Shown in pieces: positions 2,520 to 32,154 of a stretch of 64,000 nt of DNA. The position numbers were made by a program, and so were the translations under genes. The notes beneath the pieces were generated by a model that saw only the letters and a program-made list of their open reading frames with translations, was not told the origin of the DNA and did no database searches. Positions within the stretch are counted from its first letter, which is position 1; every line of letters begins with the position of its first letter. This DNA comes from Escherichia phage S143_2: the sequence record MZ189261.1, one strand, 5' to 3'.

Positions 2520-3620
2520 TTATGCTGTGAAGATTTTATCCCACATCGCAACAACTGCATCTCGGTTATACTTCTTCCATACTGCTTCAGCACGTTTAAC
2601 TCGAGCTTCGTATGTATCAGTGAATTCTAATACAGCTTTTGTGTAAAGCGCAACTACTTCTTTCTTAGGAGTAGAGGAATCAATTTCTACACGCACAGTA
2701 TCTGGGTCGTATTCAAATGTCGCATGAGGATAATCCTTAAAAACTAACTGGATTACAGGGACACCTTTAGAGATGGCTTCAATAGAACTATTCTCTACTG
2801 TACCTGTGTCAGGACAAGTATTAATAAGTGCTTTAGCTGTTTTAAGACGTTCCATGATTTCACTGTGTGGAGCATCAATAATAACAGGATATTTAGCTGG
2901 TGGTGCCCATTTGCTTGGACAGTATCCTACACCATTTTCGCCTAGTGCTTTAATTGCTTCAAGAGCAACATCAGTGCGACGCATTTTAGTGTCATAACGT
3001 TGTGCACTAATAATCAGATCAGTCGCCGGAAGAACTTCAGGTTTCTCATTCAAACAAATAACCGGATAATCTTCGGCTTCAAACAACGGATTTGCTCGCC
3101 AATAATCATAATCAATTTTGTCAGTCAGACCTGAAGTCATATAACAATATTTGCGTTCAAATTCACGGAAGGCTTTAGTAGGAGCATAACTCTTACCACC
3201 ATTCTTATGAATTTGAATAGTCTGGTCCCAAATTTGAACAATGCCACGAGATACTGGTTCAAATGGTGTTGCCATAAAATTCTTATGAACTTTAGAGAGA
3301 CCTGCGTCTTTAATTGCCTGAACGGTTAGTTTAGTCGGTTCCATAGTAACAACAAAATCGTATTCATGGATGCCGGCTAGTTCAACAATCTTACGAGCCA
3401 TAGTATAACTCATACCTAGACTGAATTTAGTCAGATGACCAACAGGATGATGTGTAACTTTCCAGTCACCAAACGTGTCATTATCAAAGCCGATATAATC
3501 AATATCAGCACCGATGGACACAAGATATTTCAACACATTTAAATGTACTGCTTCAAGGCCACCTTGTACACGGTCAGGATTAAATGGGACTGCGCGAGAT
3601 GGGATAAACATAACTTTCAT
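2520..3620 (-). CDS. GT-B fold glycosyltransferase (GT4-like), candidate DNA glycosyl/arabinosyltransferase
   Basis: N-terminal MKVMFIPS...GG Rossmann start and C-terminal E-x7-E motif (ENSSIEAISKGVPVI); sits between rIIA.1 and gene 39. Confidence 0.6.
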   Translation of the reverse strand: MKVMFIPSRAVPFNPDRVQGGLEAVHLNVLKYLVSIGADIDYIGFDNDTFGDWKVTHHPVGHLTKFSLGMSYTMARKIVELAGIHEYDFVVTMEPTKLTVQAIKDAGLSKVHKNFMATPFEPVSRGIVQIWDQTIQIHKNGGKSYAPTKAFREFERKYCYMTSGLTDKIDYDYWRANPLFEAEDYPVICLNEKPEVLPATDLIISAQRYDTKMRRTDVALEAIKALGENGVGYCPSKWAPPAKYPVIIDAPHSEIMERLKTAKALINTCPDTGTVENSSIEAISKGVPVIQLVFKDYPHATFEYDPDTVRVEIDSSTPKKEVVALYTKAVLEFTDTYEARVKRAEAVWKKYNRDAVVAMWDKIFTA

Positions 3621-22853: not shown

Positions 22854-23402
22854 TTAACGAGCCCATTTGATAATTTCTGTAATCAAATTATTACGTTCGC
22901 TTGCATTAAATCCTATAACTTTGTTAGCACCATCATGATTAAGTAATTGATACGTTTGGATTTTGTTATGAATTGCAAACTCTTCAAAATATGAAATGAC
23001 TGTATTAAAACCAAATGAAGACAAAGTAATAAGGTCGTCTTCAAAACTTTCAGTCATTTCGTTACGTGTTAAAATAATTGTGAACACATCATGGTTTTGG
23101 CAAAGACGAACATAATCCTGTTCATAAACGTCAAGAACCGAGTCCACATCTTGTCGAATACGTCCATAAACCCAGTTACTAATATATCCACGGTCTAACA
23201 GATAAATCTTAGTAGGGTCTAAATAATTCAACATCGTTTCGAAACAGCCAACTTCATTTCGAGACTTAACATCGAAACGTCCATCAACTGTTCGTTTAGG
23301 GAAATCAATCTTTACATATCTTTCACTAATTTCCATTATGTCATTAATGAAAGTTGTTTTACCAGCATTATCCGGGCCATCTACTAAAATAATTTTAGCC
23401 AT
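22854..23402 (-). CDS. P-loop nucleotide kinase, thymidylate-kinase-like
   Basis: Walker A DGPDNAGKTT and LLDRGYIS (DRY-like); 182 aa; at the bgt position. Confidence 0.5.
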   Translation of the reverse strand: MAKIILVDGPDNAGKTTFINDIMEISERYVKIDFPKRTVDGRFDVKSRNEVGCFETMLNYLDPTKIYLLDRGYISNWVYGRIRQDVDSVLDVYEQDYVRLCQNHDVFTIILTRNEMTESFEDDLITLSSFGFNTVISYFEEFAIHNKIQTYQLLNHDGANKVIGFNASERNNLITEIIKWAR

Positions 23403-23403
23403 T

Positions 23404-24303
23404 TTATTCCTCGATTACGACATCTTCATATTTAGGTATATTATACGGTGAAGAAATTAAAGCATTAAAGTAGATGAACTCACCAAGACCTGGATGGAAT
23501 ACTTCTTCAGGATTTTCGAAATATTGAATCTTCGGACGTCCTTTAAGAATTTGATAGTACTCAGTTTTAGTTGGTTTAAAAATTCGAATCAACGCTTCTT
23601 CAGGATACTTATTTCTGTCGAAGCTATTATTTGGATCGGTTATATAAAGCGGTTGGCCTAATTGAATTGCACATTCAACCACTTGTTCAAAACGATAGCA
23701 CGGGTCACTAATTCGAAATGGATGAAAAATACCATCTAGATGAATAGGAGCCAAATCACCTACAAGACGCTGCATGATGGAAGGACGTATAACTTTCTGC
23801 GTTACGATAATCTTATTACCATCTGCACCTGCGTTAACCAGCACTTCTTTTTGACGTTCATTCAACACAGTAGTTTGAAGTGAACGATTAACCGACAACA
23901 TATCAGTTTTTAAGAATTCGTCAATATAAAAACGTGGTTTATTAGGGTCTGCAGTGATATTGAAATTGAATTCCACATCAAAAGCGCCGTCATATCCGGT
24001 GATATCTGTGATTAGAAAATCACAATCATAATAAGCAATTAATGAATCAACCACAAATTCATTTTCAGACCAGAAATATTTACGAGTGTTATACGCGTTA
24101 TCTTTATACCATAATGGAACAAACTTAAATTCTGGGAAAAGACGTTCACATTCTTTAATATCAGATGCATTACGTGGATATGTAATCACATCACCAGGAT
24201 TAGCACGGTGCAAATGAAGTTGGAAGTTGCCATCCTTAAGGATAGCGTACTGTCCAGTTTCATAAGACCGCATACTCAAGATAGGTACGCGGAAAATAGC
24301 CAT
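23404..24303 (-). CDS. hypothetical protein (299 aa) at the bgt position
   Basis: start overlaps stop of gene 42 (TAATG); no motif recognised. Confidence 0.5.
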   Translation of the reverse strand: MAIFRVPILSMRSYETGQYAILKDGNFQLHLHRANPGDVITYPRNASDIKECERLFPEFKFVPLWYKDNAYNTRKYFWSENEFVVDSLIAYYDCDFLITDITGYDGAFDVEFNFNITADPNKPRFYIDEFLKTDMLSVNRSLQTTVLNERQKEVLVNAGADGNKIIVTQKVIRPSIMQRLVGDLAPIHLDGIFHPFRISDPCYRFEQVVECAIQLGQPLYITDPNNSFDRNKYPEEALIRIFKPTKTEYYQILKGRPKIQYFENPEEVFHPGLGEFIYFNALISSPYNIPKYEDVVIEE

Positions 24304-25019
24304 TAGTCAAGGAATCCTTTAACATAATCAAAATCACGTTCAAACACATGGGCACTTACCATGGTATGAGTATAATCACCAACTTCTACACCGCATTCGT
24401 TAGCGATATAATGAAGTAATTTTCCTTGGAGATAAAAATCCAACTGCATAACAACAGCACAGTTCTGAGAACGCATATGACAGTGGGTATAAAGCTTACC
24501 ATCACGAATATAATAAGTTACTGAGTCAGTACATGGATATTCAAGCGTTTCGTCTGAATCAAGCAAAGCCTGATCAGAACTTTCTAGAATTTGGAACACA
24601 ACTCTTCGAGAGTTAGGCTTCTCTTTAAGTTCTTTTAGAAGAGCTGGTAATTGGGCCGCAATGCGAGGACCATAGAAAGTGTTGAAGTTCGCCGGCAAAA
24701 CATCTGATTTTGGTTTAGAAATAAATTTAGCGACATTAGGATATGCCTTAAACGCTTCTTCTGCGTTGGTACCACCAGAAATCATAAACTTCCAGAAGTC
24801 TTCGGCATATTCATAAGAGATGCGGTTAATACGTGGGTCAGTCATTTTGAATGATGACGGAGTGTCAACAACTACTGTCATAGACCCAATTTCATTACAA
24901 CGTCCAATACGAGAATCAGTTACGAATTCCGGGTTTTCTAAAATTTCACGATTGACTGCTTTAAATGCGGTTTGAAAATCTGCGGCTTTGATATATTTCA
25001 TTGTGTTATGTTTTCCCAT
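24303..25019 (-). CDS. 42: dCMP hydroxymethylase-like (thymidylate synthase family)
   Basis: 238 aa; EYPCTDSVTYYIRD...MRSQN resembles the catalytic-Cys region of T4 gp42; synteny. Confidence 0.65.
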   Translation of the reverse strand: MGKHNTMKYIKAADFQTAFKAVNREILENPEFVTDSRIGRCNEIGSMTVVVDTPSSFKMTDPRINRISYEYAEDFWKFMISGGTNAEEAFKAYPNVAKFISKPKSDVLPANFNTFYGPRIAAQLPALLKELKEKPNSRRVVFQILESSDQALLDSDETLEYPCTDSVTYYIRDGKLYTHCHMRSQNCAVVMQLDFYLQGKLLHYIANECGVEVGDYTHTMVSAHVFERDFDYVKGFLD

Positions 25020-25038: not shown

Positions 25039-25064
25039 ATTATATACTCAATTCGTAAAGCTTA
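25039..25064 (-). promoter_or_regulatory. possible MotA-box middle promoter upstream of gene 42
   Basis: minus-sense AGCTTTA, 11 nt, TATAAT, GAGGT SD. Confidence 0.3.
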
Positions 25065-25200
25065 TTTGAATTTCTTGACAATGTTGATATAACGTAAAGC
25101 TTCAGCATCGATACTTCCAAGAACACTATGAAGAAATGCATCAGCGTAGTATTCCAATTAAACAGGTTCTTTAATCACTTTAGCCGCTTTAGTTTCAAAC

Positions 25201-25221
25201 AGGCCCATCAGGGCCTTTTTA
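25201..25221 (+). terminator. plus-strand hairpin plus T5
   Basis: aggccc-atca-gggcct followed by ttttt on plus strand. Confidence 0.3.
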
Positions 25222-25297
25222 AGAATTTGTTCGATGCTGTTAATTTTCATAGCCAAAATCTCTTCGTTAAGTTGGTGGTTAAAAGTTTTTCTAGAAA

Positions 25298-26458
25298 TCA
25301 TTCTGGGTACCTCAAAGCGTCGTCAGAGTTAGTTATATCAATAATAGATATAGAATTTTCTGATAACCCATTTTTAGATAACTGACGTTTATAATATCTT
25401 TCACAATATGTACACGTCGTCCCGCAGATTTCATTAGCACAATCGAAATCCGGATGTTTGAACCACCTTTTTTCTAAAAAGCCATCTAACAAAGAGGTTT
25501 CAATATTTACCGTATGTGAAAACTCGGTCTCATTTTCAAGAGTGAAAATGGTCTCTAAAGGCTTCCACAATTCCAACAAATTACCTTCAAATTTTTCAGA
25601 AGCATAAGCTTCAAGAACTTTCAAAATGTAGTCTGTGCTACCTGTACGTCCTGAAACTTTGAATTGAGTGATACCGATATCATTATAAAGTTTCAAATCT
25701 TGAGGACGAACAAAACGAGTTCTCAACCAGTTAAATGGGTCTGTATCACGAGCTTTAATACAGTGCTGCATTGGATATCCATTTAAGGATTTGGCATCAT
25801 CTACTGTAACATCGGTGCTATGGAAAATATAGCAAGAGTCACGATAGCTACAATGTGTTGTATACCCTTTACCAGCATTAGAGCAGAATTCATTTACGAG
25901 AACTTCAAATATTATATTGTTCTTATTACAAAACTCTGCTGCACGCTTCAGGAAAGAAACTGAACGGTTCTTATGAATTCCACAGCAGACCTTTTTGATA
26001 TTATATTGGTCATGCAAGTATTTGATTTGAGTTACAGCATCGACATGTAGAATTGTTGAAACTTCAATCTCAATGTCTTTATTGACTTCACGAACAATTT
26101 CCATAACAACAGGGTTAGCGATAGTAATACGCCATACGCCTATTGACCAAAGATACTGAACATAATCCTGAATAGCTTTCTTCTTCCACTCAACTAGTTC
26201 TCTTTTTGAACCAGGATTTATCGTGTTGAGTGTATAGTTAAAGCAAATACCTAATTCGTTACAACGTTTAACGTAATCTTCTAACATCTTTTTGTCAACG
26301 TCGGGAAGCCTAAAATCAGGTCTGGCTGCTACAAAAGCCATTTCTCTTGTAGAGCCGTATACTTCGTTTATCAAGCTATTAGGATAAGTTTTATTGAGCT
26401 CTACGATTTTATCAAGAAGAGCTAAATCAAAATTCGTTCCGATTTTAAAGGTATTCAT
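25298..26458 (-). CDS. U32-like protein with C-terminal CX3CX2C cysteine cluster
   Basis: 386 aa; EVLVNEFC...C...C resembles U32 core; C-terminal CANEICGTTCTYC. Confidence 0.5.
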   Translation of the reverse strand: MNTFKIGTNFDLALLDKIVELNKTYPNSLINEVYGSTREMAFVAARPDFRLPDVDKKMLEDYVKRCNELGICFNYTLNTINPGSKRELVEWKKKAIQDYVQYLWSIGVWRITIANPVVMEIVREVNKDIEIEVSTILHVDAVTQIKYLHDQYNIKKVCCGIHKNRSVSFLKRAAEFCNKNNIIFEVLVNEFCSNAGKGYTTHCSYRDSCYIFHSTDVTVDDAKSLNGYPMQHCIKARDTDPFNWLRTRFVRPQDLKLYNDIGITQFKVSGRTGSTDYILKVLEAYASEKFEGNLLELWKPLETIFTLENETEFSHTVNIETSLLDGFLEKRWFKHPDFDCANEICGTTCTYCERYYKRQLSKNGLSENSISIIDITNSDDALRYPE

Positions 26459-26513: not shown

Positions 26514-26900
26514 TTATAGATTCGGTTTATATGATTTAAATGTTTCGAATTCGCCTTTATTCATAAGAGCTTTGAATTCGTCAGGACGCATAGCTTTGTC
26601 GTCGATAATCCAATCATATACTGGTTTATGTGTTAGCAAATTATGGTACTTCAATCCAATGTTTGCCAAGTTCTGAATCAGACTTGGGAGAATGTCAATT
26701 GCTATACGACCAGGACCGACTGACTTCATACCGCGAGCAGTGTAAAGCGTTATGGTATGCCCTGCATCATACAGGGCATTAATGGCAGACACCATTTCGA
26801 CGTCTGGTTTGAAGTTCACGTAATCACGATTGTTATTCCACTCTGTTATACAATCATCGACATCAAAACAAAGATTAAGCATGTTTTTTACACGGTGCAT
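26514..26900 (-). CDS. HAD-superfamily phosphatase-like protein
   Basis: FDVDDCIT near N-terminus, TLYTARG, WIIDDKA; start overlaps upstream stop. Confidence 0.45.
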   Translation of the reverse strand: MHRVKNMLNLCFDVDDCITEWNNNRDYVNFKPDVEMVSAINALYDAGHTITLYTARGMKSVGPGRIAIDILPSLIQNLANIGLKYHNLLTHKPVYDWIIDDKAMRPDEFKALMNKGEFETFKSYKPNL

Positions 26901-28585
26901 TAGATTCGTTCCCATTGATGAGTGATATCGCCACCGATTGGACGATAAGAAACACCAGTTTCTTTATCAGTTAGTACCCATTTACCAGGATTTTTTGTAA
27001 TCAGAGTAGCCGTTACAGGTTCTGCTACATCATAACTAATAGTGCCGTCCTGAAGTACACGGCCCATGTTACGTAATTGCTTAGTCAGAAGTTCCATACC
27101 TTTATAATATGCGGCTACCGCTTTAAGTGGATTATTCTTGAAATAACCACCTAATGCAATCCAGATAATTGCCACTGCCAAATGATGATACTCGTTAAAC
27201 GAACTCATCTTTCCATATTTGTAAACTAATGGATTGATGTTAATAGTCACATTACAAGTTGTTTCATCAATAGTAAACTGACCCCAGGTCGGATTAGCGT
27301 TGAATTCATCATAACCTGAAACAGCGTAAAGCACTTTAGCTTCATCATACAATTTTGGCCCGTAAATCTTGGTTTCACCAAAATATCCACGAGGGTCAAT
27401 AAACTTGACTTCGCCGTTATCAGTAATCATAGTATTACTGAAGTTCGGGTCACCATGAATAACAGAGTACTGTCCCTGAGAACGGTTATGATAACGAATA
27501 AGGTGTTCTAAAGCTTGTTTCAGCATTGGCTTCAGACGCCCAATCTTAGTGTAGTTCACATGTGTGATTTTACCAAATGAATCAATCAATGGTTGAATAC
27601 TTTCACAACGATCAATAACTTTCGTATAGAACTCTTTAGTGAAATCACGACGAACAGTTTCAGGACTTACAAAATAAGTGTCTGTGCTGAATTTCAGTGC
27701 GTCTAAAATTGCATCAACAATTTGTGGACGAGCAAGACTTGATTTGGATTTAATATATTCAAATGCCGGCTTACCTTTAATGCGTTCCATTTCAAAGTTA
27801 TTTTCATTAACAGAAACTAACTGAGGAACTGAATCTGATTTCACTTTAAGATACCATGAAATCTCATCTTTCTGAAGAGCTCGGCCCTGTTCGGTTAATG
27901 CGAATTTAGTTACAGTTTCTTCACCAATTTCAACTGCATTAAAACTACGATTAAGTTCACGAACTTCATGAGCTTTTTCAAGTTTAGGCATATCACCTAA
28001 ATCAATTAGATTCATAAGCTCTGATTTATTGAATGCGCTGCCGTAAAGGAATTCTACGAAATCGCGTCCTTTGCAGTATTCATGAATTTCCTCATCAGTA
28101 GAACCCATATAGAATTCCCAGTCTTTGAACTGATAAATTCCTACAACATTACCACCTGTTGAACCTACGTTAGTGATATTTTCACCGTCGAAATTATATC
28201 GACATTCGTCGCCCTTAACATAGATTGCGTTAACATTCCAAGACCATGAACCAAAATCAGGAATAATATCACACCAGTTAACAATTACATTATGGCCGTC
28301 TAAATCTTTGTGTAATTTAGCAAGAGCATAAGCGGAACCATACGCTTCATCAACTGTACGAATAGTCACATTGAACCCTTCTTGCTCACAATAAGCTCGA
28401 ACAGTTTCAGCAAATTTTGAATGAACTACTACAATAATTTCATCTGCGCCAAGGTCAGAATAAATTGTATACAAATTGCTCAGAATAGTGTCTTGTTTAT
28501 AGTTAACAAGCACCTTAGGAATATGATGCGTTATTGGATACAAACGAGTTGCCAGTCCAGCACCAAGAATAACAGCTTTTTTCAT
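26900..28585 (-). CDS. bifunctional sugar-1-phosphate nucleotidyltransferase (N) / sugar kinase (C)
   Basis: N-terminal MKKAVILGAGLATRLYPIT...PK NTase signature; C-terminal HGDPNFSN...IDPRG Brenner motif; 561 aa. Confidence 0.7.
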   Translation of the reverse strand: MKKAVILGAGLATRLYPITHHIPKVLVNYKQDTILSNLYTIYSDLGADEIIVVVHSKFAETVRAYCEQEGFNVTIRTVDEAYGSAYALAKLHKDLDGHNVIVNWCDIIPDFGSWSWNVNAIYVKGDECRYNFDGENITNVGSTGGNVVGIYQFKDWEFYMGSTDEEIHEYCKGRDFVEFLYGSAFNKSELMNLIDLGDMPKLEKAHEVRELNRSFNAVEIGEETVTKFALTEQGRALQKDEISWYLKVKSDSVPQLVSVNENNFEMERIKGKPAFEYIKSKSSLARPQIVDAILDALKFSTDTYFVSPETVRRDFTKEFYTKVIDRCESIQPLIDSFGKITHVNYTKIGRLKPMLKQALEHLIRYHNRSQGQYSVIHGDPNFSNTMITDNGEVKFIDPRGYFGETKIYGPKLYDEAKVLYAVSGYDEFNANPTWGQFTIDETTCNVTININPLVYKYGKMSSFNEYHHLAVAIIWIALGGYFKNNPLKAVAAYYKGMELLTKQLRNMGRVLQDGTISYDVAEPVTATLITKNPGKWVLTDKETGVSYRPIGGDITHQWERI

Positions 28586-28626
28586 GTTGTGGTCCTCATT
28601 GGTAAGTAGGAGTATTGTACACTATT

Positions 28627-28770
28627 CTAGTTAAAGCATTCATACTTTGCTTGTAGTCCAATCATAATCCATCCGGTTATAAGAGTCGGAATCATTACTG
28701 GAGCCGTTAAGCTCCAGTAGATAGTCATGACAAGCATCAATAGTAAAAGTCCTATTGTTATTGCTTTCAT
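28627..28770 (-). CDS. small hydrophobic protein (47 aa, below cutoff)
   Basis: ATGA overlap with upstream stop; hand translation MKAITIGLLLLMLVMTIYW... Confidence 0.3.
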   Translation of the reverse strand: MKAITIGLLLLMLVMTIYWSLTAPVMIPTLITGWIMIGLQAKYECFN

Positions 28771-29402
28771 TGTTCGCCTCGTAACATGGCACCTAGTGCA
28801 CCGCCAGGGTGGAACTTAAGGAAGTCATTAGAGGTAAATCCACGTTCAGACGAAAGGTTGATAGCAAACGTATCGATAAGCGCTAACAACAATGTAGTGG
28901 ACATAGTCGGAGCCAGAGAATTCTCATCAACCTCTACTGCGATGCCTGTACAGAAAGAGTAATCAAAAAGGGCTTCATTTTCTTGTGGAATGTCTGGGTT
29001 ACAATGCAACAGAATCTGTTTGACGTTCGGACGAATCATTTTAAGATGCTTAGCCACGCCTATCATTTCTTCAGTTTTACCAGAACGACTAATATGAATC
29101 AACACATCATTAGGCGCAATGAATCCTGCATCACCGTGAGAATAATGCCCGGTGTTCAAGTACATACTCGGGATACCAAGTGAAGCAAATGTCTCAGAAG
29201 CTTTAGTTGCAATATTAGCATTCTTACCCACACCTGTAATAATTACACGACTTTCATAATTACTAAGTCCAGGGCGTCGAAGAGTTTCTAGAATAGCATT
29301 ATAACGAGCAGGGTTTTGACTAATTACTTTGGCCATAGCGGCCAAAGAAGAAGCTTGTTTTATGATTGCGTCAATAGCGATAGTAATAGGAGTAGTTTTC
29401 AT
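28767..29402 (-). CDS. SIS-domain sugar-phosphate isomerase, KdsD-like arabinose-5-phosphate isomerase
   Basis: VIITGVGKN, HGDAG, APTMSTT, FHPGGALG motifs line up with the KdsD SIS domain; 211 aa. Confidence 0.7.
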   Translation of the reverse strand: MKTTPITIAIDAIIKQASSLAAMAKVISQNPARYNAILETLRRPGLSNYESRVIITGVGKNANIATKASETFASLGIPSMYLNTGHYSHGDAGFIAPNDVLIHISRSGKTEEMIGVAKHLKMIRPNVKQILLHCNPDIPQENEALFDYSFCTGIAVEVDENSLAPTMSTTLLLALIDTFAINLSSERGFTSNDFLKFHPGGALGAMLRGEQ

Positions 29403-29442: not shown

Positions 29443-32154
29443 TCAAAAATCGAACATATCGAACAGAGATGCTTTCTTCTCGTAATCGAGTTTCGCTGCT
29501 GATGTGAATCCTTCAAGTGGTTTAATAAATGTCTTCTCAAGGAGAACAGTGTAGTCCATCCAATGAAGTACATCGTCTTTAATTAAATCTGTGATTTCAG
29601 TGCCAGAAGGCCATGCGATACATTTATCACCGAATGGGTTTCCTTCACGTAAAGGCAGAACATATACTTTTTCACCTTCTACAACTTGCGGTGCATCGAT
29701 ATTACCTTTGATAGCCCGGTTATACGTCAGAATTCCACGAATATGGAATGGGCATTTGGGACCAGGGAATCCACCTACATCATATTTAGCAATGTTATTC
29801 GCAGAAGATACCGACGCGATGCTAATATAATTCAATTGACGGAATTCTTTTTCAAACTCTTTAAAATATTCTTGTAATGATTCTTCACCTTCTTGAAGCA
29901 TACGACGAATACATTCTTTAAGAGCTTTCTGTACTGCTTTAGGAGTCGAAGATTTCTGAGTCTCTAGACCCATGATTTTGAGTTTAGGCTCAGCGTAACG
30001 AGTACCTTCCATATCCCACACGTTTAATGCATAACGTTTCTTACCAGTCCAGAATCCACCAATACCTTTAGAACCGAGTGGAGGCCCAGCGATAGCTTCT
30101 CGGTCCATGAACATTAAGTGTTGTTTATTGTTCATGTATTCACACATTTCACGGAAACCTCTATCAATAGCTGGTTCCATACGTTCACGTGCAAACTTAT
30201 CTAAGAAGTCTACCCAATGGTTGGTATCACGGAATTTAGATTCACCAACCTTATCGATAATTTTATCAGCAGATACGTAAATAGAGTCTGTATCACCATA
30301 AAGAACGAAAGCTTCACCTTCCGTACCACAAACTTCATTCAGATATTCATTAACTTTACGTTCAATCCACTGTAAAGCCATTTGTCCGAATGTTGTGATT
30401 GCAGTAGCATTACGCAAATCATAATAACGGAACCAAACGTTGCCAAGTGCACCATAAAGTGAGTTGATAAGCAATTTACGGTTAATTTGGGCAGTCATAC
30501 CTGCAACTTCAGTACGTTGAGCTCTAAACAACATTTCATTAAGAGATTTAGCAGACAACTTTTTAATCTTTTCTTTAATCTCATCGCTGAAGTCGAAACG
30601 ATAATCAACATCTAATGGTTCGTCAACAGAAAGATTAGGATTATGCAATGCCTCTTTAATTATTTCACCATTACGTTGAGCTGCAAGCATGTAACCTTTA
30701 TGTTCTTTACGTTGATTAAAGACCTTAGTGATTTCAGTTGGAACTACACCATCACGGTCTTTATAATACATCATGCCGTTAGGAGAACAACTGTACACAT
30801 CAGAAGGACGTTCAGCAACAGCGTTAATATAATCATGCAATGGAGCTACTTTAAACGTTCCTGCTATTGTTTCTGGGCTAATATTCACTTGGCGAATAAT
30901 ACTTGGATACAGAGATGTAAGGTCGAAACTCATTACATATTTGTATCGATTTGGAATAGGTTCCTTAACAAAAGCGCCAGGATAAGGTTGAACCGGGTGA
31001 GAACGACCTTGTGGAATCACCTTGTTCTGCTCTTTAAGGCTATTAAAAATAATAGCATCCCATGTTTTAATTGGACTAAACACAGATTGAATCTGTATCT
31101 TAGCATAATAACCCATGTCCAAACTCAAGTTGATGAACTGACGCTTAGCATCAATTTGCAATACACGATACACGTCGATAATGTTATAAGAAATATATCG
31201 TTGGTGATTGCTTTCACGAAGCTTAGAAATAGGGCCGTCATATTTCAGTTTACCAACGTTCAATTCAAATTCTGAAATGTAATCCAGAGAATACGACGGT
31301 TGATTGGTAAAAGAGAATTTTTTGTAAAGGTCAATGTAATCAAGAACAGATATACCGAACAATGTAATGATTTCACGAGAACCATACATGTTTTCGATAA
31401 CTTTAACACGAGTTTTACGATGCGGTGATAAACGTTTCGCAGTAGATTCGCCAAAAATATTCTTGATTCGGTTATACACATACGGAATATCAAATGACTC
31501 AACGTTCCATCCAGTCAAAATGACAGGAGTTTTCTGTTGCCAGAAGTTGAGATATTCCATCAACAATTCTTTTTCGTTATCGAACGGCATATAAATGATT
31601 TTATCGATAATTTCGGATGGAACTTCATCACCGCCCTGTTCTTGAAGCTTAGCAGCGATTTCAATAGACCATTCTTCCACATTACCGTATGGAGAATTCA
31701 ATAGATCAAATACGTAGAACCTGTCGTCAATTGAGTCATAATGGGTGATAGCATCAATCGGATGTTTTGCTTGTGACGGCTCAGGGAACCCATCGGGAGA
31801 TGTTACTTCGATGTCGAAGTTAGCCACACGAATTTTTGTATGGTCGTATTTGATTTCATAGTTATAAGTGTCAGACAAATACGCCAATTTGAAATCGTCC
31901 ATGCCAAGTGCTTCAAGACCGATATCTTCCATGCGTTTAATCCATTGGGAGGCATCACGCATATTGGCGAACAACTTACGAGTACACGGCTTACCGTAGA
32001 TATCGAAATATTTCGTAGCCTGACTTTCCGGACAATGAGCAAACAGTGATGGTTTATATTCTACTTCACGAGTACGTTCACGGCCATTAGAATCGATGTA
32101 ACGTTCAAAAATTGAATCACCAATCTGTTCAACCGTTAAGTAAAATTCTTTCAT
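29443..32154 (-). CDS. 43: DNA polymerase gp43 (family B)
   Basis: 903 aa, exo motifs (FDIE), pol motifs (SLYPS, YGDTDS), MKEFYLT start. Confidence 0.95.
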   Translation of the reverse strand: MKEFYLTVEQIGDSIFERYIDSNGRERTREVEYKPSLFAHCPESQATKYFDIYGKPCTRKLFANMRDASQWIKRMEDIGLEALGMDDFKLAYLSDTYNYEIKYDHTKIRVANFDIEVTSPDGFPEPSQAKHPIDAITHYDSIDDRFYVFDLLNSPYGNVEEWSIEIAAKLQEQGGDEVPSEIIDKIIYMPFDNEKELLMEYLNFWQQKTPVILTGWNVESFDIPYVYNRIKNIFGESTAKRLSPHRKTRVKVIENMYGSREIITLFGISVLDYIDLYKKFSFTNQPSYSLDYISEFELNVGKLKYDGPISKLRESNHQRYISYNIIDVYRVLQIDAKRQFINLSLDMGYYAKIQIQSVFSPIKTWDAIIFNSLKEQNKVIPQGRSHPVQPYPGAFVKEPIPNRYKYVMSFDLTSLYPSIIRQVNISPETIAGTFKVAPLHDYINAVAERPSDVYSCSPNGMMYYKDRDGVVPTEITKVFNQRKEHKGYMLAAQRNGEIIKEALHNPNLSVDEPLDVDYRFDFSDEIKEKIKKLSAKSLNEMLFRAQRTEVAGMTAQINRKLLINSLYGALGNVWFRYYDLRNATAITTFGQMALQWIERKVNEYLNEVCGTEGEAFVLYGDTDSIYVSADKIIDKVGESKFRDTNHWVDFLDKFARERMEPAIDRGFREMCEYMNNKQHLMFMDREAIAGPPLGSKGIGGFWTGKKRYALNVWDMEGTRYAEPKLKIMGLETQKSSTPKAVQKALKECIRRMLQEGEESLQEYFKEFEKEFRQLNYISIASVSSANNIAKYDVGGFPGPKCPFHIRGILTYNRAIKGNIDAPQVVEGEKVYVLPLREGNPFGDKCIAWPSGTEITDLIKDDVLHWMDYTVLLEKTFIKPLEGFTSAAKLDYEKKASLFDMFDF

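What the first reader, a model, noticed from the sequence alone, without database searches (positions are those of the whole stretch)
26900..28585. Fused nucleotidyltransferase/kinase with salvage-type architecture
One 561-aa polypeptide has an N-terminal sugar-1-P nucleotidyltransferase domain (GAGLATRLYPIT...PK) and a C-terminal aminoglycoside-phosphotransferase-like kinase (HGDPNFSN). The same domain order occurs in bifunctional sugar kinase/pyrophosphorylases that activate a free sugar in two steps. The nucleotide specificity would define the donor used by the phage glycosyltransferase.
Basis: inference. Interest (0 to 1): 0.6.

Follow-up and report, generated by a model that had tools for sequence, protein, structure and literature searches.

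The report
Known phage UDP-arabinose kinase/pyrophosphorylase fusion

Summary
The 561-aa ORF at 26900..28585 (minus strand) is real. It has an N-terminal sugar-1-phosphate nucleotidyltransferase domain and a C-terminal APH/choline-kinase-like kinase domain, and every catalytic residue is invariant across 46 homologs.

The window is the first 64 kb of a Mosigvirus (RB69-like T4 relative). The protein is 99.4-99.5% identical to RB69 ORF53_52c (gp52:53) and identical to a deposited Shigella phage phi25-307 protein.

The gene lies in the published arabinosyl-5-hydroxycytosine cluster: arabinose-5-P isomerase, this gene, an overlapping HAD phosphatase gene, a U32 protein, the 5-hydroxy-dCMP synthase and an arabinosyltransferase.

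Published work (Thomas 2018; Lee 2026, citing He 2026 on the HY126 homolog AfhE) assigns it D-arabinose-5-phosphate 1-kinase plus UDP-D-arabinofuranose pyrophosphorylase activity. The HAD phosphatase removes the 5-phosphate between the two steps.

Verdict: already known, low interest.

The most interesting by-product is next door. The U32-family protein is paired with a chorismate mutase in 48 related phage records, which suggests an unreported O2-independent, prephenate-dependent route to 5-hydroxycytosine.

The parts
26900..28585 (-). Gene for the 561-aa fused nucleotidyltransferase/kinase, the ortholog of RB69 ORF53_52c = gp52:53 (AfhE-type). Stop codon at 26900-26902.
   Evidence: ORF. It is 99.4-99.5% aa identical to RB69p053 and RB69p052; at DNA level the two differ by 37 mismatches and one 1-nt gap, at the frameshift known to be a sequencing error in the RB69 record (PMC6024577). 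The exact sequence is YP_010093095.1 of Shigella phage phi25-307.
27965..28585 (-). N-terminal domain (aa 1-207): sugar-1-phosphate nucleotidyltransferase fold, with GAGLATRLYPITHHIPK at aa 8-24, WCD at 104-106 and IDLGDxxK at 194-201.
   Evidence: Pfam PF00483 E 8.5e-10. A profile of the family against PDB gives HddC 6jq8 at 1.7e-13 and LicC at 2e-11. Foldseek finds IPCT-DIPPS (4mnd), MurU, RffH, RmlA, GalU and LicC at about 1e-8. G10, R14, K24, D106, D195, G197, D198 and K201 are invariant in 46 homologs.
27065..27964 (-). Kinase domain (aa 208-507): APH/choline-kinase-like (eukaryotic-like kinase) fold, with K227, E241, HGDPNFSN at 377-384 and IDPRG at 396-400.
26903..27064 (-). C-terminal extension of 54 aa, rich in beta strands, function unknown. 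More distant homologs cover only about 88-90% of the query and end within a few residues of the kinase domain in the four sequences read.
   Evidence: Secondary structure and lower pLDDT (80-89); coverage column; sequences of P0084, P0091, P0092.
28614..28638 (-). T4-type middle-promoter-like site (MotA box TGCTTTA, 12 nt, TACAAT). Its last base lies 28 nt upstream of the ATG.
   Evidence: The pattern occurs 16 times in the window against 1.96 expected, and no shuffle of 100 reached 16. Sequence read. Function is inferred, not shown.
26514..26915 (-). HAD-family phosphatase (RB69 gp51, AfhF-type). It starts either at 26915 (16-nt overlap with the fusion gene) or at 26900 (TAATG stop/start overlap, as annotated in RB69).
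   Evidence: NCBIfam TIGR01689 capsule-biosynthesis phosphatase, E 4.2e-13; 98% identical to RB69p051; found in 374 phage records against 373 for the fusion gene; role from PMC13326640.
28767..29402 (-). SIS-domain D-arabinose-5-phosphate isomerase (RB69 gp55), which supplies the kinase substrate from ribulose-5-P.
   Evidence: Pfam SIS E 1e-10; NCBIfam KpsF/GutQ 2e-32 and KdsD 7e-31; PHROG 5670. Present in 275 phage records, with Klebsiella not among the ten organism groups listed.
28627..28770 (-). 47-aa hydrophobic small ORF between the isomerase gene and the fusion gene; its start overlaps the isomerase stop codon.
   Evidence: Annotated as a CDS in Bas47 and as containing a transmembrane domain in Klebsiella phage KLB31.
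25298..26458 (-). Peptidase-U32-family protein (RB69 gp50), part of the cluster, function unestablished.
   Evidence: Pfam PF01136 E 6.3e-11. Present in 221 phage records, every one at least 80% identical. Listed as 'sugar or heterocycle reductase' in PMC13326640 Table 1.
25062..25301 (-). Homolog of RB69 gp49 (79 aa), interrupted in this window by an in-frame TAA at 25158-25160.
   Evidence: CAA (Gln48) in RB69 and Bas47, TAA here.
24303..25019 (-). Thymidylate-synthase homolog, the 5-hydroxy-dCMP synthase (RB69 gp48).
   Evidence: Pfam PF00303 E 2.3e-15; synteny with RB69 and Bas47; activity shown for RB69 gp48 in PMC13326640.
23404..24303 (-). Putative first DNA arabinosyltransferase (RB69 gp46:47), consumer of the NDP-arabinose.
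   Evidence: PHROG 3891 end to end; no Pfam hit; same position as RB69p046/047; assignment from PMC13326640.
22854..23402 (-). Thymidylate-kinase-like nucleotide kinase (RB69 gp45).
   Evidence: ORF; same size and position as the genes annotated thymidylate kinase in RB69 and Bas47; no significant Pfam hit.
2520..3620 (-). Putative second arabinosyltransferase (RB69 gp3 / ORF003c), the other consumer of the donor.
   Evidence: 363 of 366 residues identical to RB69p003, at the same coordinates; assignment from PMC6024577 and PMC13326640.

Best explanation
The gene encodes the Mosigvirus ortholog of RB69 gp52:53 (AfhE type), a bifunctional enzyme of the phage pathway that makes UDP-D-arabinofuranose for arabinosylating 5-hydroxycytosine in phage DNA.

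Proposed course:
1. The phage SIS isomerase, or host KdsD/GutQ, converts ribulose-5-P to D-arabinose-5-P.
2. The C-terminal APH-like kinase domain uses ATP to phosphorylate the anomeric C1-OH, giving arabinofuranose-1,5-bisphosphate.
3. The HAD phosphatase, whose gene overlaps this one, removes the 5-phosphate.
4. The N-terminal nucleotidyltransferase domain condenses arabinose-1-P with UTP to give UDP-D-Araf.
5. The phage GT-B arabinosyltransferases (genes at 23404..24303 and 2520..3620) transfer the sugar to 5-hydroxy-dC.

Shown here: the two folds, the intact catalytic residues, near-identity to the RB69 protein, gene order, and the obligate pairing with the phosphatase.

Taken from the literature: the substrates, the order of steps, and UDP as carrier.

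Inferred: that this 99%-identical protein behaves like the characterised HY126 enzyme, and that the gene is transcribed from a middle promoter.
For: - Orthology. The protein is 99.4-99.5% aa identical to RB69p053/p052. The only gap in the DNA alignment is at the documented RB69 frameshift error (PMC6024577). Gene order matches RB69 and Bas47. The exact protein is already deposited.
- Folds. Models have pLDDT 94.4 and 94.0. The N-domain matches sugar-1-P nucleotidyltransferases. The C-domain matches small-molecule kinases of the APH/choline-kinase fold, including the anomeric kinases maltokinase, 5-methylthioribose kinase and NahK.
- Catalytic residues of both domains are invariant across 46 homologs down to 28% identity.
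- Context. An arabinose-5-P isomerase lies upstream and an overlapping HAD phosphatase gene downstream.
- Co-occurrence. The phosphatase is in 374 phage records and the fusion gene in 373, with identical counts for Escherichia (176), Acinetobacter (57), Klebsiella (25) and Shigella (15).
- Fusions. Single chains of 890-955 aa carry HAD, SIS, nucleotidyltransferase and kinase in that order.
- Literature. [quoted passage not shown] The Shewanella phage Thanatos homolog is essential for propagation (PMC12838424).
Against: - This protein has not been assayed.
- The primary biochemical paper (He et al., Nat Chem Biol 2026) is not in the held library, so substrates and step order rest on the summary by Lee et al.
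- Table 1 of that same paper still lists the other order, with the phosphatase making free arabinose and the kinase then phosphorylating it.
- The HY126 sequence could not be retrieved, so identity to the assayed enzyme is unknown.
- The Thanatos homolog made no NDP-xylose from xylose-1-P with any of five NTPs, although that is a non-cognate substrate.
- Nucleotide specificity cannot be read from the sequence. The nearest solved relatives use UTP, dTTP, GTP or CTP.
Confidence: 0.8

Rival explanations
1. Salvage-like order, which is the first reader's model and also the order in Table 1 of Lee et al. The HAD phosphatase first makes free D-arabinose from arabinose-5-P, or arabinose is scavenged. 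The kinase domain then phosphorylates the free sugar at C1, and the N-domain makes the NDP-sugar.
Against: The text of the same paper, citing enzymology on HY126 AfhE and AfhF, gives arabinose-5-P as kinase substrate and the 1,5-bisphosphate as phosphatase substrate. A pathway that strips a phosphate only to add another spends ATP without gain. It also releases a free pentose that E. coli can divert; that last point is from my own knowledge. Sequence data alone cannot separate the two orders.
Confidence: 0.13
2. A LicC/LicA-type pair that activates a non-sugar alcohol, for example phosphocholine to CDP-choline or an inositol phosphate, rather than a sugar.
Against: With a family profile the best hit becomes the heptose-1-P guanylyltransferase HddC. 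The flanking genes are a pentose-phosphate isomerase, a sugar-phosphate-type phosphatase and glycosyltransferases, and no choline-related gene was detected among the flanking ORFs scanned. The DNA of RB69 carries arabinose.
Confidence: 0.02
3. The protein is itself the DNA glycosyltransferase, using its GT-A-like N-domain, as proposed for the Thanatos homolog TH1_060.
For: Databases tag the N-domain as GT-A superfamily (PMC6024577). The Thanatos authors kept it as a glycosyltransferase candidate.
Against: The N-domain carries the pyrophosphorylase signature GxGxRLxPxTxxxPK with invariant R14 and K24, and it matches nucleotidyltransferases, not transferases acting on acceptors. The Thanatos protein transferred no xylose to DNA or nucleotides. 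Separate transferases exist in the genome.
Confidence: 0.02

Closest known systems
RB69 ORF53_52c / gp52:53 and HY126 AfhE (bifunctional D-arabinose-5-P kinase / UDP-D-arabinose pyrophosphorylase)
   Same: Same length (561 aa), 99.4-99.5% identical to the RB69 protein, same neighbours in the same order, same two domains (PMC6024577, PMC13326640).
   Different: Nothing of substance: a few substitutions. Identity to the assayed HY126 protein could not be measured.
NDP-heptose pathway (GmhA isomerase, HldE or HddA kinase, GmhB phosphatase, HldE or HddC nucleotidyltransferase)
   Same: Same logic: a SIS isomerase makes an aldose phosphate, an anomeric kinase makes a bisphosphate, a HAD phosphatase removes the distal phosphate, and a nucleotidyltransferase activates the 1-phosphate. 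HddC is the best profile hit for the N-domain. Lee et al. report Foldseek similarity of RB69 gp51 and DLP3 gp81 to a heptose-1,7-bisphosphate 7-phosphatase; I did not compare the window's phosphatase with GmhB.
   Different: The kinase has the APH/choline-kinase fold, not the ribokinase (HldE) or GHMP (HddA) fold; those two fold assignments are from my own knowledge. The domain order is the reverse of HldE. The substrate is a pentose, and the product is used on DNA. The N-domain scores 22 bits against the NCBIfam HddC model, whose cut-off is 300.
AmgK/MurU MurNAc salvage and other anomeric sugar kinases of the APH fold (NahK, maltokinase, 5-methylthioribose kinase)
   Same: The same two folds do the same two chemistries: anomeric phosphorylation, then uridylyl transfer. 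5-methylthioribose kinase also acts on a 5-substituted pentofuranose.
   Different: Those enzymes take unphosphorylated sugars, need no phosphatase, and are separate proteins in the characterised Pseudomonas system (own knowledge). Here the substrate is reported to be a sugar 5-phosphate.
FKP-type bifunctional L-fucokinase/GDP-fucose pyrophosphorylase and eukaryotic arabinokinase/pyrophosphorylases
   Same: One chain with the pyrophosphorylase at the N-terminus and the kinase at the C-terminus; two-step activation of a sugar (own knowledge).
   Different: Their kinase is of the GHMP family and acts on the free sugar, and the carrier is GDP. The fold here is APH-like.

Membership tests
RB69 gp52:53 / AfhE family | Orthology to the described RB69 protein (sequence and position in the genome) | tested here: met
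   99.4-99.5% aa identity. Same flanking genes as RB69 and Bas47. The window begins at rIIA like the RB69 record, and the early genes occupy the same coordinates.
RB69 gp52:53 / AfhE family | N-terminal sugar-1-P nucleotidyltransferase domain with GxGxRLxPxTxxxPK and acidic metal/sugar-binding motifs | tested here: met
   Pfam PF00483 at 39.1 bits, above the cut-off of 21.2. G10, R14, K24, D106, D195 and D198 are invariant. Fold matches.
RB69 gp52:53 / AfhE family | C-terminal APH/choline-kinase-like domain with the ATP-binding Lys-Glu pair, HGDxxxxN and the Mg-binding Asp | tested here: met
RB69 gp52:53 / AfhE family | Linked HAD phosphatase, arabinose-5-P isomerase, 5-hydroxy-dCMP synthase and arabinosyltransferase genes | tested here: met
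   co-occurrence counts.
RB69 gp52:53 / AfhE family | Arabinose-5-P 1-kinase and UDP-arabinose pyrophosphorylase activities | not testable with these tools
   Reported for HY126 AfhE, as summarised in PMC13326640. The primary paper is not held.
RB69 gp52:53 / AfhE family | Sequence similarity to the assayed HY126 AfhE itself | not tested
   HY126 exists in the taxonomy, but its record could not be addressed by name with the search tools.
Free-sugar salvage kinase/pyrophosphorylases (FKP type) | Pyrophosphorylase-then-kinase order on one chain | tested here: met
   Domain order. The order in FKP is from my own knowledge.
Free-sugar salvage kinase/pyrophosphorylases (FKP type) | GHMP-family sugar kinase domain | tested here: not met
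   All of the top 50-60 fold matches listed have the APH, choline-kinase or protein-kinase fold.
Free-sugar salvage kinase/pyrophosphorylases (FKP type) | Self-sufficient two-step pathway from an unphosphorylated sugar, with no phosphatase or isomerase partner | tested here: not met
   Contextual test. The HAD phosphatase gene overlaps this gene and co-occurs with it in 374 versus 373 records. An isomerase lies upstream. All four activities are fused in distant relatives.
NDP-heptose pathway enzymes (HldE / HddA / HddC) | Equivalog-level match to HddC or HldE models | tested here: not met
   The NCBIfam HddC model scores 22.1 bits against a cut-off of 300. The kinase fold is different.
LicC/LicA phosphocholine activation | Fold resemblance of both domains | tested here: met
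LicC/LicA phosphocholine activation | Choline, teichoic-acid or LOS gene context | tested here: not met
   The neighbours are pentose-phosphate and DNA-modification genes.

The most novel reading that the evidence does not exclude
Activation of D-arabinofuranose through a 1,5-bisphosphate, carried out by this nucleotidyltransferase/kinase plus a HAD phosphatase, may not be confined to DNA modification in T4-like phages. It may be a module used across the virus world.

Two observations point that way:
- Relatives at 31-35% identity occur as single HAD-SIS-nucleotidyltransferase-kinase polypeptides on contigs with giant-virus hallmarks: a MutS-HNH protein, an RNA polymerase Rpb2 subunit and a 1553-aa family-B DNA polymerase. 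One also comes from a eukaryote transcriptome.
- A 350-kb phage-like contig carries the module next to a thymidylate-synthase homolog and a T4 endonuclease-IV-like gene.

In giant viruses the product could feed capsid or fibril glycans rather than DNA.
Probability: 0.4. Interest if true: 0.45.

Novelty: already known. Interest (0 to 1): 0.15.

Why it matters
The enzyme supplies the sugar donor for arabinosylating phage cytosines. Published work links that modification to blocking many restriction enzymes and to evasion of, or sensitivity to, other bacterial defence systems. Knowing the gene therefore helps predict which therapeutic or engineered phages carry hard-to-cut DNA. It also offers a short enzymatic route to UDP-D-arabinofuranose.

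For this scan the value is mainly negative. The gene was described in 2018 and its function was assigned in 2026, so the finding adds nothing new apart from correcting common mis-annotations. Deposited records call this gene 'GlmU' or 'bifunctional protein', and call the neighbouring HAD phosphatase 'phosphoheptose isomerase' or 'polynucleotide kinase'.

Tried and rejected
- **Primary paper.** The biochemical paper (He et al., doi 10.1038/s41589-026-02150-z) is not held. Searches for AfhE/AfhF and HY126 found only the citing paper. No supplements are held for PMC13326640. The Mahler et al. 2025 paper is not held either.
- **Solved structure.** No solved structure of this protein or a close relative exists by sequence. 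The best PDB hit is LicC at 2.1e-5, over the N-domain only.
- **Whole-protein fold search.** The search with the full-length model was swamped by N-domain hits, so the C-terminal part was modelled and searched separately.
- **Nucleotide specificity.** I considered reading it from the N-domain and rejected the idea. The nearest relatives use four different nucleotides at similar scores.
- **Phosphate-binding residues.** I considered asking whether the invariant basic residues R213, R326, R399, K417 and K488 line a 5-phosphate pocket.
- **Glycosyltransferases and nucleotide kinase.** Pfam gives nothing significant for the two putative arabinosyltransferases or the thymidylate-kinase-like ORF. 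Their assignment rests on synteny and the literature.
- **U32 side lead.** There is no PDB sequence hit. Alignment to E. coli UbiU, UbiV, TrhP and RlhA is only 17-22% identical, and the cysteine pattern does not line up cleanly. RB69 gp49 shows no detectable similarity to chorismate mutase.
Full report
**Observation**

One search lists a single ORF at 26900..28585 on the minus strand (ATG start, 561 aa).
- GAGLATRLYPITHHIPK at aa 8-24.
- HGDPNFSN at aa 377-384.

A GAGGA ribosome-binding site lies at 28593-28597. A T4-type middle-promoter-like site (TGCTTTA, 12 nt, TACAAT) lies at 28614-28638, its last base 28 nt upstream of the ATG. That pattern occurs 16 times in the window against 1.96 expected.

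The ORF is clearly a gene:
- Pfam NTP_transferase is above its curated cut-off.
- PHROG 4098 matches end to end.
- 373 phage records encode a homolog.
- The AlphaFold2 model built from 46 homologs has mean pLDDT 94.4.

**What the window is**

The 6.5 kb around the gene is 98-99% identical to many Mosigvirus genomes (RB69-like relatives of T4).

The window starts at rIIA, as the RB69 record does, and the early genes sit at the same coordinates.

The gene is 97.7% identical in DNA to RB69 ORF053c plus ORF052c. The single 1-nt gap is the site that Thomas et al. 2018 showed to be a sequencing error splitting one 561-residue protein (PMC6024577). At protein level the two parts are 99.5% and 99.4% identical.

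The exact protein is already deposited, for example as YP_010093095.1, 'bifunctional protein', of Shigella phage phi25-307. In phage Bas47 it is annotated 'putative enzyme involved in UDP-arabinose biosynthesis'.

**Anatomy of the protein**

- **N-terminal domain, residues 1-207.** This is a sugar-1-phosphate nucleotidyltransferase fold. Foldseek finds MurU, RffH/RmlA, GalU, HddC and LicC at about 1e-8. A profile of the family finds HddC at 1.7e-13 and LicC at 2e-11. All NCBIfam matches are far below equivalog cut-offs, so it is a family of its own within that superfamily.
- **Conserved residues.** Across 46 homologs down to 28% identity the following are invariant: G10, R14, K24, D106, D195, G197, D198 and K201 in the first domain; K227, E241, G378, D379, N384 and D397 in the second. 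H377 is present in 45 of 46.
- **C-terminal extension, residues 508-561.** This is a small beta-rich tail of lower confidence. Distant homologs cover only about 88-90% of the query and end soon after the kinase domain.

**Surroundings**

All genes of the cluster are on the minus strand. In order of transcription they are:
- DNA polymerase (29443..32154).
- SIS arabinose-5-P isomerase (28767..29402; KpsF/GutQ 2e-32).
- A 47-aa hydrophobic ORF (28627..28770).
- The fusion gene.
- A HAD phosphatase whose start overlaps the fusion gene's stop (26514..26915, or ..26900 as annotated in RB69).
- A U32-family protein (25298..26458).
- The gp49 homolog (25062..25301).
- The thymidylate-synthase homolog (24303..25019).
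- A putative arabinosyltransferase (23404..24303).
- A thymidylate-kinase-like gene (22854..23402).

The second putative arabinosyltransferase (RB69 gp3) is at 2520..3620 and is 99% identical to the RB69 protein.

Across the phage collection the fusion gene and the phosphatase are inseparable: 373 and 374 records, with identical counts for Escherichia, Acinetobacter, Klebsiella and Shigella. The isomerase is in only 275 records, and Klebsiella phages are not among the ten groups listed for it. That fits arabinose-5-P being a normal host metabolite of the Kdo pathway (own knowledge).

**How it most likely works**

Lee et al. 2026 (PMC13326640) report four relevant things:
- RB69 DNA carries beta-D-Araf-(1-3)-alpha-D-Araf linked by an ether to 5-hydroxy-dC.
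- The thymidylate-synthase homolog makes 5-hydroxy-dCMP.
- UDP-Araf is a competent donor for the DLP3 transferases.
- He et al. [quoted passage not shown] The HAD enzyme AfhF removes the 5-phosphate from the 1,5-bisphosphate between the two steps.

My results fit that scheme but cannot prove the order of steps:
- There are two intact active sites.
- The phosphatase is an obligate partner whose gene overlaps this one.
- An isomerase lies upstream.
- Distant relatives fuse HAD, SIS, nucleotidyltransferase and kinase on one chain.

The logic copies the NDP-heptose pathway: isomerase, anomeric kinase, distal phosphatase, nucleotidyltransferase. It is built with a different kinase fold.

The rival order has the phosphatase acting first and the kinase then working on free arabinose. 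I give it about 0.13.

A choline-type substrate, or a role as the glycosyltransferase itself (suggested for the Thanatos homolog), are unlikely given the signature motifs and the context.

**Comparison and novelty**

The protein is a member of the RB69 gp52:53/AfhE family by every feature I could test. Only the enzyme activity and the direct comparison with HY126 remain untested.

- It works like the heptose pathway but is not a member of it.
- It shares folds with AmgK/MurU-type salvage enzymes and with LicA/LicC, but not their substrate logic or context.
- It shares domain order but not kinase fold with FKP-type salvage enzymes.

The finding is therefore a correct reading of a known enzyme with one wrong inference. 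Novelty: already known. Interest: low.

**By-products**

1. *The neighbouring U32 protein.*
   - It is present in 221 phage records and is always at least 80% identical, even where the fusion enzyme has drifted to 42-54%.
   - No Acinetobacter phage appears among the listed host groups, although 57 of them carry the rest of the pathway.
   - About 40 Escherichia phages also appear to lack it, so the link to host lifestyle is imperfect.
   - In 48 records from Klebsiella, Yersinia, Serratia (including LC53), Enterobacter, Edwardsiella and others there is a match to a chorismate mutase gene. That gene was verified in Klebsiella phage KLB31 (PF01817, E 1.3e-9). In KLB31 it lies directly between the U32 gene and the thymidylate-synthase homolog, and in almost all listed records it abuts that homolog.
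   - U32 enzymes TrhP, RlhA and UbiU/V are O2-independent hydroxylases that depend on prephenate, the product of chorismate mutase. RlhA makes 5-hydroxycytidine in rRNA (PMC6599085, PMC5727448, PMC10990095).
   - The known phage hydroxylase needs O2 and a flavin.
   - A second, anaerobic route to 5-hydroxycytosine is thus a concrete, testable idea. I found it in none of the held papers. Lee et al. call the protein a 'sugar or heterocycle reductase'.
2. *The gp49 homolog.* In this window the ORF occupying the chorismate-mutase slot carries an in-frame TAA where RB69 and Bas47 have CAA.
3. *Fusions and a jumbo-phage-like contig.* The four-domain fusions lie in giant-virus-like contexts. A 350-kb phage-like contig carries the same module next to a thymidylate-synthase homolog and an endonuclease-IV-like gene.

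Noticed in passing
window 25298..26458 (-); also L006 4983-6394: The U32-family protein of the cluster is at least 80% identical in all 221 phage records that have it, far more conserved than the adjacent sugar enzymes. No Acinetobacter phage is among the listed host groups. In 48 related phage records there is a match to a chorismate mutase gene; in KLB31 that gene (PF01817) sits directly between the U32 gene and the thymidylate-synthase homolog. Cellular U32 enzymes (TrhP, RlhA, UbiU/V) are prephenate-dependent, O2-independent hydroxylases, and RlhA makes 5-hydroxycytidine. This suggests an anaerobic route to 5-hydroxycytosine alongside the O2/flavin-dependent synthase. None of the held papers makes this link.
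   Followed up: partly
window 25062..25301 (-), stop at 25158-25160: The 79-aa ORF between the U32 gene and the thymidylate-synthase homolog (RB69 gp49) is cut by an in-frame TAA here, where RB69 and Bas47 have CAA (Gln48). It could be a natural nonsense variant, a pseudogene or a sequencing error. The RB69 version shows no detectable similarity to chorismate mutase, although it occupies the slot that gene has in other genera.
   Followed up: partly
L002 8001-10781 (P0084); L011 8001-10862 (P0089); proteins P0088, P0091, P0092: Distant homologs (31-35% identity) are four-domain HAD-SIS-nucleotidyltransferase-kinase polypeptides of 890-955 aa. They lie on contigs with giant-virus hallmarks: a MutS-HNH protein, RNA polymerase Rpb2 and Rpb10 subunits, and a 1553-aa family-B DNA polymerase. 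One comes from a eukaryote transcriptome. Other variants of 777-790 aa are longer at the C-terminus, and a source describes two of them as cupin-superfamily proteins.
   Followed up: partly
L012 5135-11689 (350-kb metagenome contig): A jumbo-phage-like contig carries, in order, a SIS isomerase, a GT2 glycosyltransferase, a 519-aa nucleotidyltransferase/kinase, a HAD hydrolase, a thymidylate-synthase homolog and a T4 endonuclease-IV-like gene, with a dCMP deaminase nearby. That is the same module outside the T4-like phages, with a different type of transferase.
   Followed up: no
window 28614..28638 (-), 27308..27333 (-), 23440..23464 (-) and 13 other sites: The T4 middle-promoter pattern TGCTTYA-N11-13-TANNNT occurs 16 times in the window against 1.96 expected. 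One copy lies just upstream of the fusion gene, one inside it, and one inside the transferase gene upstream of the thymidylate-kinase-like gene.
   Followed up: partly
window 28627..28770 (-): A 47-aa strongly hydrophobic ORF lies between the isomerase gene and the fusion gene, and its start overlaps the isomerase stop codon. It is annotated as a CDS in Bas47 and, in a Kanagawavirus, as containing a transmembrane domain. Its function is unknown.
   Followed up: no
window 26903..27064 (-), aa 508-561 of the fusion protein: A beta-rich C-terminal tail of 54 residues (pLDDT 80-89). More distant homologs cover only about 88-90% of the query and end soon after the kinase domain. It may serve oligomerisation or partner binding, but nothing is known.
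   Followed up: no
phage collection: The arabinose-5-P isomerase is in only 275 records against 373 for the fusion gene. Klebsiella phages are not among the ten groups listed for it, and about 40 Escherichia phages lack it. Those phages presumably draw arabinose-5-P from the host Kdo pathway. Public annotations of the module are inconsistent: the fusion gene is called 'GlmU' or 'bifunctional protein', and the HAD phosphatase 'phosphoheptose isomerase' or 'polynucleotide kinase'.
   Followed up: partly
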